Part shown: piece by piece, positions 21,301 to 24,300 of the stretch
Layout of the letters: the number at the start of each line of letters is the position of its first letter
Numbering within the stretch: position 1 is the first letter of the stretch
NCBI RefSeq assembly: GCF_009914755.1
Contig: NC_060934.1
Origin: the human T2T-CHM13v2.0 reference genome, Homo sapiens
Direction: 5' to 3' (one strand)
DNA length: 64,000 nt
Made by a program: the position numbers and the translations under genes
Notes under the pieces: model-generated
Told to the model about the DNA's origin: nothing
Database searches by the model: none
What the model saw: only the letters and a program-made list of their open reading frames with translations

Positions 21301-24300
21301 GTTTTCATATGCCATCAACTCCACTATGACCTTACGGGCTTTTTCATTGGCAATTGACTTTTGAGCAACATCTTGGAGCCTTGCCACAAAATCAGGGTAG
21401 GGCTCTTTCGAACCTTGTCTTACTGTATTAAATGAGGGGCAGGCGCTTCCTGGGTCTTGGATTTTTTCCCAGGCTCTAAGGCAGATAGCTCTAACTTGCT
21501 CAATGGCCTCATTTTGCATTAATGCTTGTTGACTAATAGTACTCCAATTTTGACTTATTCCTAATAGTTGATCTGCATCTATGTTAACTGGAGGATTGGC
21601 AGCCCTATTTCTTCGGACCTGTTCTTGTACCCCATCAATCCACCAAGTCTTAAATTGTAAAAATTGAGAGGGTGAGAGAGACGATTTTGCCAGAATCTCC
21701 CAATCATAAGGAATGAGTCTATGTCCATGAGCAATGGAATCTAATAATGTCCTCATATAAGGGGATTTGGGTCCATACTGTTTTACTCCCTCTTTCATAT
21801 CTTTTAGCATTTTTATCGAAAAAGACTTGTATCTGGCCTCAACTGTGAGAGGCTCTCCCTCTTGGGCTCCTTCTCCAGGTGGCATCGGTTCTAACGTTAC
21901 TGGGAATTGCCACGCCTCAGTATCTCCTTCCTTTCTTGATTTATCAATAATTTCATGTAATTCACTACCCTGTCTACTAGGTGGTGCCGTAGGATTAAGT
22001 CTCCTAGTGGGCGGCTGAGGGTATGGCGCCCTGCCCTGTGGTGCTGGGGGCATTCCTGGATATCCATACTGACTTTCTGGGGGTGGCCGATACTGAAGTT
22101 CGGCTGGCGGCCAGTATTGATAAGCTACTGGCGGTTGGGTCTTATTTTCTTTAACCTGCGTTTGAGGTTGTAGTGTTACGGGCACCTGACCTGCTGGAAG
22201 AGGACTTGGCCCTCGTGGCTTAGACTCTGATGGCCCCACTAATTCTGGACCTTTTCCTTCTAATTTTAACGTTTCAGGATATATCACCTCCTGTAATTGA
22301 TTATAGTCAACATTTTGCGTTGACTGAGCCATTACCGGCTCTGCTACATATTCGCAATGTAAACTTTCCATTTCTTTCTGGGATTTTTTCCTTGTCTTTT
22401 CATTACAATCTACTATACAGCTTCTAGGGGCGTCAGGAACTGAAACGCTATCTTCTTCTGTTTGAAATGGTTCTAAAGCTGCTTTAATAATGGCCCAATC
22501 ATTCCATACTATAAGTGGAATGATATTACCCTTCCTACCTGCTTGTTTTAGTTCCTTACCAATTCTTTTCCAGTCTTTTAGATCTAAAGTTCCTTGTTCT
22601 GGAAACCATGGGCAAAATTGTTCTATTATTTGAAATAGCTTGATTAGATTTTTTTGTAGATACTTTAACTCCCCCTCTTTTTAAAAGAATTTTAATAAAG
22701 CTGAGATAAGAGGCATATTTACTTTTAATTTTACTTTTAGTTTGCCCCATTATTACCCTAGCTTCTTCCGAGCTCACAAGCTTACCGTACGGCTGACTGT
22801 ATATGTACTCGGGATCTCTCGTCGACTTGTGCTCAATGACCACGCTCGAGCGTACCTTCACCCTAGAGAAAAGCCTCCACGTTGGGCACCAGATGAAGGG
22901 GTGGGTTGCCCCTCCACACCTGTGGGTGTTTCTCGTAAGGTGGAATGAGAGACTTAGGAAAGAAAAAGACACAGAGACAAAGTATAGAAATAAGGGGATC
23001 CTCCATATGCTGAACGCTGGTTCCCCGGGTCCCCTTATTTCTATACTTTGTCTCTGTGTCTTTTTCTTTCCTAAGTCTCTCGTTCCACCTTACGAGAAAC
23101 ACCCACAGGTGTGGAGGGGCAACCCACCCCTTCACACCTGCCTGGAATGGAGGGTGAAGTTCCCAAGGAAAGAACAGTGTCTAATGCTAGAGTTCTCTGA
23201 GTTATTGCTCAGTCAACCACATCACCATGGTTACCGTAAGAAAATTGGGCAGTTTTCCCATACTAATGGTAAACATTTTTTTCTGATTAGCCTGGATCTG
23301 AGTTTCTGGATTCTGTTATAAACCACTTCTCCTTTGAAGAATCCTGTCTTTAATGTACAAAGAACAGTTTGCAAAACATCCCCGTAAGCCCTTTTTCTGG
23401 TGAACACTGAGAGAACATTTCTGAGCAGTTTTGTAAGCTCCAGAGCCTAGGATGCTGCTGTGTTGGCCCTGGGATCTGGGACTTGGTGGAATGAAGAGAA
23501 GGGCAGGAGGGCAAGGTGAGCTGCACTGAGATTGGTTCTGTGTATGAGTTTCCTAATTAGCTGCCTTAACAACACATCACAAACTGAATGGCCACACATT
23601 TCTGGAGGCTAGAAGGGCAAAATCAAGGTGTCAGCAGGATTAGTTCTTTCTTAAGGTGTTAGGCAATAATCTGTTCAAGGCCTCTCGCCTAGTTTCCGGT
23701 GGTTTGGTGATCTTTGTTGTTGCTGTTTGTTGTGGTTGTTCTTCCTATATGTTTGTTTCATTTCCTGAACTAATTCTGTTAAGTCTGTATTCTTTGTCAT
23801 TGTCATGTGTGACCACTGAAGTCTGTTTGGTTGGCTTAGTGGTCAGCTAGTGATTAGACAGATACTCCCTTAATTGCTTTGAAACAATAAGTGTCTCAGC
23901 CTTTGCTGAGAGGTTCTGTGTGTGTGTTGTGGGTGGTGGGGAGCATGTCTTCAGCACTCCAGCAATTTACATCTCTGCCTTAGCCTTCACTTCCTGCTTA
24001 TACAGAGCCACATAGTCAGCCGGAAGTGAAAGATTAGAGCCCTCTTCCATCTTTCCTGGACATGTGCACAGCTCTGCATGTGTAGGTGGCATTCTAGATT
24101 GCTGGGAATATATCAGAGAGATCAGAGACCCTGTGAGCATCTTATTCCCCAGCTTTTCCTTTTAAGTTTTTGGTCAGCTTCTTATTTGCCCCAAGTGTTA
24201 TCACCACCTCAGGCAGCTGCTGTGATGTTAAATAATTGCTGCTGGTTTTTTGAGCTAGCTCAGTGTTAGGTCAAATAGGCCCTATAAATGGGGGTTTTCA

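What the first reader, a model, noticed from the sequence alone, without database searches (positions are those of the whole stretch)
22874..23140. HERV-K provirus with a U5 end at both termini: likely fossil of self-primed minus-strand strong-stop DNA
Seen: there is no U3 or R at the 5' end. Instead the PBS is preceded by a 241-bp palindrome with 105-bp U5 arms (104/105 identical) and a 31-bp spacer. Its outer end ...CCCCTTCA abuts the CACCTG TSD (23135-23140, matching 15740-15745). Read on the proviral sense strand, the order is antisense U5 (TGAAGGGG...GGGGACCCGGGGAACCAGCGTTCAGCATATGGAGGATCCC), a turn at a GGGA/TCCC microhomology that belongs to a natural LTR hairpin, sense U5, TC, PBS, then gag. 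Established: minus-strand strong-stop DNA starts with exactly this antisense U5; fold-back self-priming is a known in vitro side reaction of retroviral RT that nucleocapsid suppresses; integrase needs a CA att end on each side and HML-2 makes 5-6-bp TSDs. Inference: a prematurely terminated strong-stop DNA folded back, copied U5 and the tRNA PBS, served as plus-strand primer by PBS transfer, and gave a linear DNA with two U5 att ends that integrated normally. This would be an in vivo germline record of a non-canonical reverse-transcription route yielding a promoterless provirus.
Basis: partly seen in the sequence, partly recalled or inferred. Interest (0 to 1): 0.92.

Follow-up and report, generated by a model that had tools for sequence, protein, structure and literature searches.

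The report
Provirus started by folded-back strong-stop DNA
A human-specific HERV-K provirus in an ABCC2 intron has, in place of its 5' LTR, a hairpin-shaped copy of the first DNA that reverse transcriptase makes, and two other places in the genome carry the same hairpin, so a side reaction known from the test tube seems to have happened repeatedly in the human germ line.

Summary
Window 22894-23134 is a 241-bp palindrome of HML-2 LTR-end sequence, next to the Lys PBS of a minus-strand provirus (15746-23134). CACCTG flanks the provirus on both sides, and no U3 lies nearby.

- **Recurrence.** The same junction (…GGAGGATCCC|CTTATTTC…) occurs, with no mismatch, at two other loci of this genome. 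These are chr10:100.138 Mb and chr15:25.93 Mb, each with its own 5-6-bp target-site duplication.
- **The antisense arm matches the whole strong-stop DNA.** It starts at the tRNA-primer end of U5. It stops where HML-2 transcripts are reported to start (about nt 823-826).
- **The fold-back point.** The terminal TCCC pairs with an internal GGGA, and extension from there gives exactly the observed junction.
- **Two templates.** Both arms share changes that the provirus's own 3' LTR lacks. Two of these mark another LTR5 lineage, so two strong-stop DNAs contributed.

Best reading (about 0.72): strong-stop DNA primed itself and copied U5 and the PBS. It then took the place of plus-strand strong-stop DNA, giving a linear DNA with U5 ends on both sides that integrase inserted. 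Post-integration rearrangement is unlikely. I found no description of this in print.

The parts
15740..15745 (.). Target-site duplication, copy beside the 3' LTR (CACCTG on the plus strand)
   Evidence: Read directly; identical to 23135-23140.
15746..16731 (-). 3' LTR (986 bp, LTR5-type, TG...CA), with a 25-bp tandem duplication in U3 at 15960-16024
   Evidence: length, ends, landmarks; tandem repeat, period 25, 2.6 copies.
15746..15891 (-). R-U5 of the 3' LTR (146 nt, from the first G of GGGATCC to the terminal CA); comparison copy for the arms
   Evidence: It differs from the outer arm by 4 substitutions and one 6-nt gap.
16732..16749 (-). Polypurine tract directly upstream of the 3' LTR
   Evidence: Read directly (the reverse complement is purine-rich, AAAAGAAAAGGGGGAAA-like).
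16769..17413 (-). 214-aa Env/Rec chimeric ORF across the splice-like 1,372-bp env deletion
   Evidence: ORF; Pfam HERV-K_REC 6.8e-57, HERV-K_env_2 4.7e-56; Schmitt et al. 2013, section read.
17115..19953 (-). pol in pieces: RT, thumb and RNase H (18337-19953), integrase (17857-18267 and 17115-17978)
19947..20954 (-). dUTPase-protease-G-patch ORF
20806..22371 (-). gag ORF (capsid and two zinc knuckles)
   Evidence: Subramanian et al. 2011 list a gag ORF for 10q24.2.
22874..22891 (-). Primer-binding site (tRNA-Lys type), followed upstream by the TC dinucleotide at 22892-22893
   Evidence: Read directly. The tRNA-Lys assignment is recalled, not tested.
22894..22998 (-). Inner arm: sense copy of the last 105 nt of the LTR (3' end of R plus U5), in normal register with TC and the PBS
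22995..22998 (-). Junction microhomology TCCC, shared by the end of the antisense arm and the start of the sense arm
   Evidence: Comparison with intact LTRs shows the native next base is G on the antisense side.
22995..23134 (-). Outer arm: antisense R-U5, 140 nt (146 nt in the two other loci). It matches minus-strand strong-stop DNA from the primer junction to about the RNA 5' end
   Evidence: the position of its end in LTR numbering comes, read.
23135..23140 (.). Target-site duplication, copy beside the palindrome (CACCTG on the plus strand)

Best explanation
A full-length minus-strand strong-stop DNA primed itself before integration.

1. It had been primed by tRNA at the PBS and had run to the 5' end of an HML-2 RNA.
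2. Its 3'-terminal TCCC folded back onto an internal GGGA, in the complement of a small hairpin at the start of R.
3. Reverse transcriptase extended it back along itself through U5 and, by inference, into the tRNA. This made a hairpin DNA that ends in a plus-sense PBS.
4. This molecule then took the place of plus-strand strong-stop DNA in the second strand transfer. It annealed by its PBS to a complete minus strand, which had been made from a second strong-stop DNA in the same particle.
5. Extension of both strands gave a linear DNA with a U5 att end on each side and no U3 at the left.
6. Integrase trimmed both ends to CA and inserted the DNA with a 6-bp duplication.

The provirus has no promoter of its own. 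The same fold-back happened in at least two other germ-line insertions.

**Shown:** the anatomy, the recurrence, the target-site duplications, and the difference between the arms and the 3' LTR.

**Inferred:** the order of events, copying of the tRNA, the PBS transfer, and that the RNA ended at the fold-back point.
For: 1. **Both ends of the antisense arm are the two defined ends of strong-stop DNA.**
   - Its 5' end is the U5 terminus next to TC-PBS.
   - Its 3' end is at the first G of GGGATCC, 146 nt from the LTR end in 6 of 6 intact LTRs measured. That is nt 823 of a 968-bp LTR.
   - Bhardwaj et al. 2015 report RNA-seq starts 'primarily at position 826' (section read). This is 0-6 nt away, depending on which of their landmarks is used for registration.
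   - The 4-nt microhomology allows the arm to end anywhere in 823-827.
   - A retrocopy of an HML-2 mRNA at 2q32.1 starts 8 nt upstream of the same motif and is polyadenylated at about nt 879. The region is therefore R, and the RNA 5' end lies here.
2. **The junction is what fold-back predicts.** Extending TCCC paired to GGGA gives CTTATTTC.... The minimum-energy DNA fold pairs the last four bases with GGGA in all 3 sequences folded.
3. **Recurrence.** A 23-mer across the junction (up to 2 mismatches) and a 34-mer (up to 3 mismatches) each find exactly 3 places in the 3.1-Gb genome, all with 0 mismatches. The reversed-pattern controls gave 1 and 0 matches.
4. **Signs of integrase.** All three elements end in TG...CA. 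Their direct repeats differ: CACCTG, AGATG and ATCTAT.
5. **Two templates.**
   - The two arms differ from each other at 1 of 105 positions.
   - The outer arm differs from the provirus's own 3' R-U5 by 4 substitutions and a 6-nt gap in 140 positions.
   - The two adjacent substitutions (CTTTCCTAAG) occur in 47 other LTR copies, so they mark another lineage.
   - The 6-nt gap is found only in the two arms.
   - A pangenome preprint reports different nearest neighbours for this locus's LTR and pol, with limited support (passages).
6. **The RNA template was already unusual.** The locus is human-specific and looks like a partly spliced RNA copied 'in a retroviral fashion' (Schmitt et al. 2013, section read; Subramanian et al. 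2011, table row).
Against: - The fold-back helix is weak. It is absent from the centroid DNA structures, and the folds are no more stable than shuffled sequence: z -1.61, -0.93 and +0.10, with 11, 35 and 111 of 200 shuffles folding at least as well.
- The match to the transcription start is not exact to the nucleotide.
  - The landmarks in the paper are mutually inconsistent by 6 nt against 6 of 6 LTRs measured here.
  - The one retrocopy starts 8 nt further upstream.
  - The primary mapping papers (Fuchs 2011, Kovalskaya 2006) could not be read.
- For HIV-1, self-primed products are described as dead ends and were not detected in endogenous reactions (review, passages).
- The PBS-transfer step has no direct evidence.
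- The arm-versus-3'-LTR differences could also come from later gene conversion.
- The window's duplication CACCTG is also an internal U5 hexamer. I take this as chance, since CACCTG is common here (79 places).
- I could not inspect empty sites in apes or other human assemblies.
Confidence: 0.72

Rival explanations
1. The route is the same (self-primed strong-stop DNA before integration), but the strong-stop DNA stopped early. On this view the RNA began further upstream (the 'canonical' start, nt 793), and reverse transcriptase paused at the hairpin before folding back.
For: - Bhardwaj et al. state that the canonical start is believed to be nt 793, and their truncation assays did not reproduce the 826 start.
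- The 2q32.1 retrocopy starts 8 nt upstream of the fold-back point, so RNA 5' ends vary.
- The predicted RNA stem GGGAUCC/GGGUCCC (centroid) could act as a pause site.
Against: - Three independent events stop at the same nucleotide. That nucleotide falls in the reported start zone, 823-826.
- The AATAAATA at 790-797 lies upstream of the poly(A) site seen at about 879. This fits an R that begins near 823 better than one that begins at 793.
Confidence: 0.15
2. Rearrangement after integration. On this view a normal provirus with two LTRs lost U3 and part of R from its 5' LTR and gained an inverted U5. The cause would be replication template switching at the LTR quasi-palindrome or fold-back repair of a break.
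For: - The LTR ends are short inverted repeats (TG....GGGG / CCCC....CA), which give 2 nt or more of microhomology at the outer junction.
- The arms are more alike (1 of 105 positions differ) than either is to the 3' LTR. A later duplication would also produce this.
Against: - The outer arm would have to end exactly at the U5 terminus and abut the target duplication exactly, and this would have to happen in three separate loci with the same inner junction.
- A fold-back of chromosomal DNA would copy flanking DNA, but the flanks show no inverted copy.
- The shared CTTTCCTAAG variant is a lineage marker found in 47 other LTRs. It is not a private mutation of a human-specific locus.
- The chr15 element carries 8 nt of PBS joined to U5 at its outer end, which points to reverse-transcription intermediates.
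Confidence: 0.06
3. Assembly artefact: the palindrome is a chimeric or misassembled stretch of the T2T assembly.
For: None found. Palindromes can arise as library artefacts in general (established knowledge).
Against: - Three loci on two chromosomes have the same junction, with different flanks and intact target duplications.
- The hg19 interval of Subramanian et al. is 7,148 bp. This equals window 15746-22893 exactly, so the two assemblies agree on the length of the rest of the provirus.
Confidence: 0.01

Closest known systems
TAR-dependent self-priming of HIV-1 minus-strand strong-stop DNA (Guo et al. 1997; Driscoll and Hughes 2000). Seen only as cited and described in the review PMC6088434 (passages).
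   Same: The 3' end of full-length strong-stop DNA is the complement of a hairpin at the start of R. It folds back and is extended by RT along U5.
   Different: - The HIV-1 reaction is known from cell-free reactions and is described as a dead end that nucleocapsid suppresses.
- It was not detected in endogenous virion reactions.
- Here the product is found integrated in the germ line three times, once joined to a whole viral genome.
- The HML-2 helix is much shorter (4 bp, a mismatch, then 2 bp) than cTAR.
HTLV-1 type 2 defective proviruses (Miyazaki et al. 2007). Seen only as described in the review PMC6950816 (passages).
   Same: The 5' LTR was lost before integration, as shown by a 6-bp duplication around the defective provirus. 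The provirus lacks its own sense promoter.
   Different: - In HTLV-1 the left end is an internal pol or env sequence that integrase is thought to have recognised.
- Here the left end is a genuine U5 att site in inverted orientation, which has a defined origin in strand synthesis.
Normal plus-strand strong-stop DNA and the second (PBS) strand transfer (textbook retrovirology, recalled)
   Same: A DNA ending in U5-PBS(+) anneals to the PBS complement at the 3' end of the minus strand, and both strands are completed.
   Different: The donor here is U5(antisense)-R(antisense)-R'-U5-PBS instead of U3-R-U5-PBS, so the left end receives an inverted U5 and no U3.
Solo LTRs formed by LTR-LTR recombination (textbook, recalled)
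   Same: The stand-alone palindrome at chr10:100.138 Mb could be what remains after recombination between the 111-nt sense arm and the U5 of a 3' LTR. It sits between the original target duplications.
   Different: The homology is only about 111 nt, and the product is a palindrome rather than an LTR. Direct integration of a duplexed fold-back DNA is equally open.

Membership tests
HERV-K(HML-2) provirus | LTR5-type LTR with TG...CA ends and a polypurine tract upstream of the 3' LTR | tested here: met
   The LTR landmarks AATAAATA, CTCAGA and GGGATCC lie at the same spacing as in five other LTR5 copies.
HERV-K(HML-2) provirus | Betaretrovirus-type gene set: gag, dUTPase-protease, RT/RNase H, integrase, env/rec | tested here: met
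   (Pfam hits for all six ORFs given). pol is in pieces, and env carries the 1,372-bp deletion reported.
HERV-K(HML-2) provirus | Two LTRs flanking the internal region | tested here: not met
   There is no U3 at or beyond the 5' end. The literature also lists the locus as lacking the 5' LTR.
HERV-K(HML-2) provirus | 5-6-bp target-site duplication | tested here: met
   CACCTG on both sides. The usual length for HML-2 is recalled; the preprint read mentions 4-6 bp.
Self-primed minus-strand strong-stop DNA | The antisense segment starts at the primer/U5 junction | tested here: met
   The outer arm begins at the U5 terminal CA/TG in all 3 loci. At chr15 the first 26 nt are replaced by a U5-end/TC/PBS piece.
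Self-primed minus-strand strong-stop DNA | The antisense segment ends at the 5' end of the template RNA | tested here: inconclusive
   The end lies at nt 823-827 of a 968-bp LTR. This compares with the reported start at 826 and with a retrocopy 5' end 8 nt upstream. The match is within a few nucleotides but is not exact.
Self-primed minus-strand strong-stop DNA | The 3' end pairs with an upstream stretch of the same strand, and the junction equals the extension product | tested here: met
   TCCC pairs with GGGA in the minimum-energy fold of 3 of 3 sequences, though not in the centroids. The junction sequence is as predicted.
Self-primed minus-strand strong-stop DNA | Suppressed by nucleocapsid and by acceptor RNA | not testable with these tools
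   This needs a cell-free reaction.
HTLV-1-like type 2 defective provirus | The left end is an internal (pol/env) sequence joined to the duplication | tested here: not met
   The left end is an inverted U5 att end, and gag and the PBS are present.
L1-mediated retrocopy | Poly(A) tail and a long (7-20 bp) duplication | tested here: not met
   None of the three loci has a poly(A) tail, and the duplications are 5-6 bp. For contrast, see the 2q32.1 retrocopy.

The most novel reading that the evidence does not exclude
Self-priming of strong-stop DNA is a site-specific route of HML-2 reverse transcription that recurs in vivo, and its products can be integrated. It left 3 fixed insertions, against roughly a thousand LTR5-bearing places (1,120 first-look candidates).

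The two stand-alone palindromes may be fold-back strong-stop DNA made double-stranded and integrated on its own. They would then be roughly 250-bp 'mini-proviruses' that consist only of the first product of reverse transcription.

The fossils would also fix the 5' end of the packaged HML-2 RNA at GGGATCC and R at about nt 823-879. This would settle a conflicting annotation of the HML-2 LTR.
Probability: 0.35. Interest if true: 0.88.

Novelty: new variant of a known kind. Interest (0 to 1): 0.8.

Why it matters
- **For retrovirology.** Self-priming of strong-stop DNA has been treated as a test-tube side reaction and a dead end, one that nucleocapsid exists partly to prevent (review). Three germ-line fossils with the same junction would show three things. 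The reaction happens in real infections. Its product can re-enter the pathway through the PBS. And integrase accepts a DNA with two U5 ends.
- **For this locus.** It explains how a provirus can lose its 5' LTR before integration.
- **For the HML-2 LTR.** It gives an independent, sequence-level marker for the 5' end of HML-2 genomic RNA and the limits of R. Published annotations conflict on this: starts at 793 or 826, and 'R left out of transcripts'.
- **For annotation.** Pipelines that list 10q24.2 simply as 'lacking the 5' LTR' miss this structure.

Tried and rejected
- **Other fold-back junctions.**
  - A scan for the antisense end followed by C or T found 13 places. Three are the known loci. 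The other 10 were fetched and read, and all 10 are ordinary LTRs with a point variant.
  - A hypothetical junction at the other GGGA of U5 gave 0 matches.
- **More polyadenylated HML-2 retrocopies, to fix the poly(A) site.** 0 matches, so the site rests on the one locus at 2q32.1.
- **The LTR used by Bhardwaj et al. at 22q11.23.** The chr22 LTR I fetched (L014) is a solo LTR and not theirs, so their numbering could not be registered exactly.
- **Papers not held or not read.** Fuchs et al. 2011 is not held. Kovalskaya 2006, Macfarlane and Simmonds 2004, Guo 1997 and Miyazaki 2007 were not read; I know them only from citations.
- **Autointegration.** Rejected, because the U5 termini are at the outer ends and not at the inner junction.
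- **Spread by gene conversion or segmental duplication.** Rejected, because the flanks and the duplications differ.
- **The CACCTG coincidence with an internal U5 hexamer.** I considered it as a sign of a homology-driven junction. I set it aside because it gives the rearrangement model no usable template and the hexamer is common.
- **Searches for a printed description.**, plus term searches inside four papers, found no mention of an inverted U5, a palindrome or a hairpin at this locus. Figures, bioRxiv supplements and subscription papers were not visible.
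Full report
**Observation**

- The repeat finder reports one inverted repeat in window 22700-23300. Its arms are 22894-23001 and 23027-23134: 108 nt, 98% complementary, 25 nt apart.
- A base-by-base check finds two mismatches. One is a CpG transition at 22946/23082. The other belongs to the natural hairpin at the centre.
- CACCTG lies at 15740-15745 and at 23135-23140, directly outside the two ends.

**The provirus**

The provirus is on the minus strand.
- The 3' LTR is 15746-16731: 986 bp, with TG...CA ends and a 25-bp tandem duplication in U3. A polypurine tract lies just upstream of it.
- The ORFs carry gag, dUTPase-protease, RT/RNase H, integrase and Rec/Env domains.
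- The Lys-type PBS is 22874-22891, followed by TC.
- Window 12000-15739 and 23141-26000 have no similarity to the provirus. No U3 is therefore hidden nearby.
- The locus is the known 10q24.2 / ERVK-17 / c10_B element.
  - It is listed as human-specific with a gag ORF (Subramanian et al. 2011, table row seen).
  - It is described as lacking the 5' LTR, lying antisense in an ABCC2 intron, and missing in non-human primates. It carries a 1,372-bp env deletion that looks like a splice (Schmitt et al. 2013, section 16 and passages read).
  - Neither paper contains the words inverted, palindrome or hairpin.

**The junction**

Read on the provirus sense strand, the order is:
1. target duplication;
2. 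antisense LTR end, from TGAAGGGG... to ...CATATGGAGGATCCC (23134 down to 22995, 140 nt);
3. sense LTR end, from (TCCC)CTTATTTC... to ...CCCCTTCA (22998 down to 22894);
4. TC, then the PBS.

The four bases TCCC belong to both parts. In intact LTRs the antisense strand continues with G (...GGATCCCGCC), so the antisense part ends here at the latest. If a strand ending ...GGATCCC-3' pairs its TCCC with the GGGA of ...AAATAAGGGGACC... 35 nt upstream and is extended, the product reads ...GGATCCC-CTTATTTC.... This is exactly what is seen.

The minimum-energy DNA folds of the three antisense arms all pair the last four bases in this way. However, the helix is weak, it is missing from the centroid structures, and the folds are no better than shuffles. 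The z-scores are -1.61, -0.93 and +0.10, and 11, 35 and 111 of 200 shuffles fold at least as well.

**Recurrence**

A BLAST-type search of the window's own genome with 22874-23140 gave matches on both strands over more than 200 nt at two further places, besides the window itself. Of 1,120 first-look candidates, 40 were scored. The two places are chr10:100138014-100138271 and chr15:25927466-25927693. All other listed matches covered one arm only.
- Both places hold a palindrome with the same junction.
- A 23-mer across the junction with up to 2 mismatches finds exactly these three places, all at 0 mismatches. The reversed-pattern control gave 1 match.
- A 34-mer with up to 3 mismatches finds the same three, and its control gave 0.
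- The chr10 element is a bare 253-bp palindrome between two copies of AGATG.
- The chr15 element lies between two copies of ATCTAT. At its outer end the last 23 nt of sense U5, TC and 8 nt of PBS are joined to the antisense arm.
- Neither has other HML-2 sequence within 1.5 kb.
- The two are identical to each other from CCTGTGGGTG to the terminal CA, and they differ from the window's copy at several positions. At least two parental viruses were therefore involved.
- Other possible junctions were not found. Of 13 places with the antisense end followed by C or T, 3 are these loci and 10 are ordinary LTRs with a point variant. A junction at the other GGGA of U5 gave 0 matches.

**Where the antisense arm ends**

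- The first G of GGGATCC is 146 nt from the LTR end in all six intact LTRs measured. These are the window's own 3' LTR, L006, L007, L008, L014 and L015. It is nt 823 in the 968-bp LTR L015.
- Bhardwaj et al. 2015 (section 3.5 read) write that the canonical start is believed to be nt 793, but that RNA-seq showed starts 'primarily at position 826'.
- Registered by their E-box landmark, 826 is the first G of GGGATCC. In 968-bp numbering it is the A of that motif. Registered by their TATA landmark, it is 6 nt downstream of that first G. Their landmarks disagree with real LTRs by 6 nt.
- Because of the microhomology, the arm may end anywhere in 823-827.
- A 2026 paper repeats, citing Kovalskaya 2006, that HERV transcription starts at the 3' end of the annotated R (passages).
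- As an independent check I located the L1-made retrocopy of an HML-2 mRNA at 2q32.1 that Schmitt et al. describe.
  - Its 5' end lies 8 nt upstream of the equivalent motif.
  - Its poly(A) follows ...TTTCTTTCTCTAT, about nt 879.
- So R of real HML-2 mRNA runs from about 815-826 to about 879.
- The predicted RNA centroid has a 7-bp stem at its very 5' end, GGGAUCC/GGGUCCC (z -1.13, 32 of 200 shuffles fold at least as well).
- The antisense arm is therefore U5 plus the whole of R. That is the length and content of a complete minus-strand strong-stop DNA, and the fold-back uses the complement of a 5'-terminal R hairpin, as cTAR does in HIV-1.
- This rests on one RNA-seq statement and one retrocopy, and it is good only to a few nucleotides.

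**Two strong-stop DNAs**

In normal reverse transcription every R-U5 of a provirus descends from one strong-stop DNA (established knowledge). That is not the case here.
- The two arms differ from each other at 1 of 105 positions.
- The outer arm differs from the provirus's own 3' R-U5 by 4 substitutions and one 6-nt gap over 140 positions.
- The inner arm differs from it by 2 substitutions and the same gap over 105 positions.
- The two adjacent substitutions (CTTTCCTAAG in the arms, CTTTTCCAAG in the 3' LTR) occur in 47 other LTR copies of the genome. The scan gave 49 matches including the two arms, with control 0. They therefore mark a lineage and are not private mutations.
- The 6-nt gap occurs only in the two arms (2 matches). 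It may be a slip made while that strong-stop DNA was synthesised.
- For a human-specific insertion, this is most simply explained if the fold-back DNA and the DNA that made the 3' LTR were copied from two different co-packaged RNAs.
- A pangenome preprint notes different nearest neighbours for this locus's LTR and pol, with limited bootstrap support (passages; its supplements are closed).

**Mechanism**

Shown:
- the antisense arm has the two ends of strong-stop DNA;
- the junction is the fold-back product;
- the sense arm runs in normal register into TC and the PBS;
- both outer ends are CA ends without the terminal dinucleotide, and they are flanked by a duplication of the length HML-2 integrase makes;
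- the arms have a different origin from the 3' LTR.

Inferred:
1. the fold-back strand copied the first 18 nt of the tRNA, as plus-strand strong-stop DNA does;
2. its PBS annealed to the 3' end of a minus strand made from the other strong-stop DNA;
3. both strands were completed, and the minus strand opened the hairpin by strand displacement;
4. integrase processed two U5 ends.

The bare palindromes could have arisen in two ways. One is later recombination between the 111-nt sense arm and the U5 of a 3' LTR, as for solo LTRs. The other is direct integration of a fold-back DNA made double-stranded. I cannot tell which.

**Rivals**

- **Early stop.** A pause of RT at the hairpin on a longer RNA would give the same product. 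It is disfavoured by the coincidence with the reported start and by the position of the poly(A) site, but it is not excluded.
- **Rearrangement after integration.** This would need the same inner junction three times. It would also need an outer junction that joins the exact U5 terminus to the exact target duplication. A chromosomal fold-back would copy flanking DNA, and no such copy is present.
- **Autointegration.** This would place U5 termini at the inner junction, which is not what is seen.
- **Assembly error.** This is unlikely with three loci.

**Comparison with what is known**

- The reaction itself is the HIV-1 self-priming described in vitro. The review I read calls its products dead ends and says they were not detected in endogenous virion reactions.
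- The nearest in vivo parallel is the HTLV-1 type 2 defective provirus. It lost its 5' LTR before integration, but its left end is an internal sequence.
- Searches for a printed description found none. Subscription papers, figures and bioRxiv supplements were not visible, and Macfarlane and Simmonds 2004, who first listed c10_B, could not be read.

**Limits**

- No ape or other human assemblies were available, so the empty sites and the absence of alleles with a 5' LTR rest on published statements.
- The genome scans find exact or near-exact junctions only. Older, diverged or differently placed fold-backs could have been missed.

Noticed in passing
L002 = G000 chr10:100138014-100138271 (L002 1506-1758): A stand-alone 253-bp palindrome with the same junction as the window's. 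It is flanked by AGATG on both sides, and there is no other HML-2 sequence within 1.5 kb. It lies only 573 kb from the window's provirus on the same chromosome, and this closeness is unexplained.
   Followed up: partly
L004 = G000 chr15:25927434-25927693 (L004 1469-1728): A palindrome with the same junction, flanked by ATCTAT. Its outer end is unusual. The last 23 nt of sense U5, TC and the first 8 nt of the PBS are joined through a CC/GG overlap to the antisense arm at its nt 27-28. This looks like a second template switch. From CCTGTGGGTG to the terminal CA it is identical to L002 at every aligned column.
   Followed up: partly
L019 = G000 chr2:187009800-187011800 (2q32.1 retrocopy, L019 379-1879): This is the L1-type retrocopy of a spliced HML-2 mRNA described by Schmitt et al. 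2013. Its 5' end lies 8 nt upstream of the motif that matches GGGATCC. Its poly(A) follows ...TTTCTTTCTCTAT, about 90 nt after AATAAA. Together these bound R of that mRNA at roughly 60 nt.
   Followed up: partly
window 15740-15745, 15769-15774, 22917-22922, 23106-23111, 23135-23140: The target duplication CACCTG is also an internal hexamer of U5. On the palindrome side it lengthens the terminal U5 hairpin stem by 6 bp. CACCTG is common in this window: 79 places, against 44.65 expected from shuffles.
   Followed up: partly
window 15960-16024: A 25-bp tandem duplication (2.6 copies) in U3 of the 3' LTR helps make the LTR 986 bp long.
   Followed up: no
window 15746-22893: The hg19 interval that Subramanian et al. 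2011 give for 10q24.2 is 7,148 bp. This is exactly the length from the 3' LTR end to the TC before the palindrome. It seems the published annotation leaves out the 241-bp palindrome.
   Followed up: no
Bhardwaj et al. 2015 (PMC4379556), legend of figure 5: The printed landmarks place AATAAATA at 790 and CTCCATATGCTG at 832, which is 42 nt apart. In 5 of 5 LTR copies that hold both words the spacing is 36 nt. The window's own 3' LTR lacks the exact second word; its spacing from AATAAATA to GGGATCC is 30 nt, the same as in the five. Their nucleotide numbers therefore cannot all refer to one sequence.
   Followed up: partly
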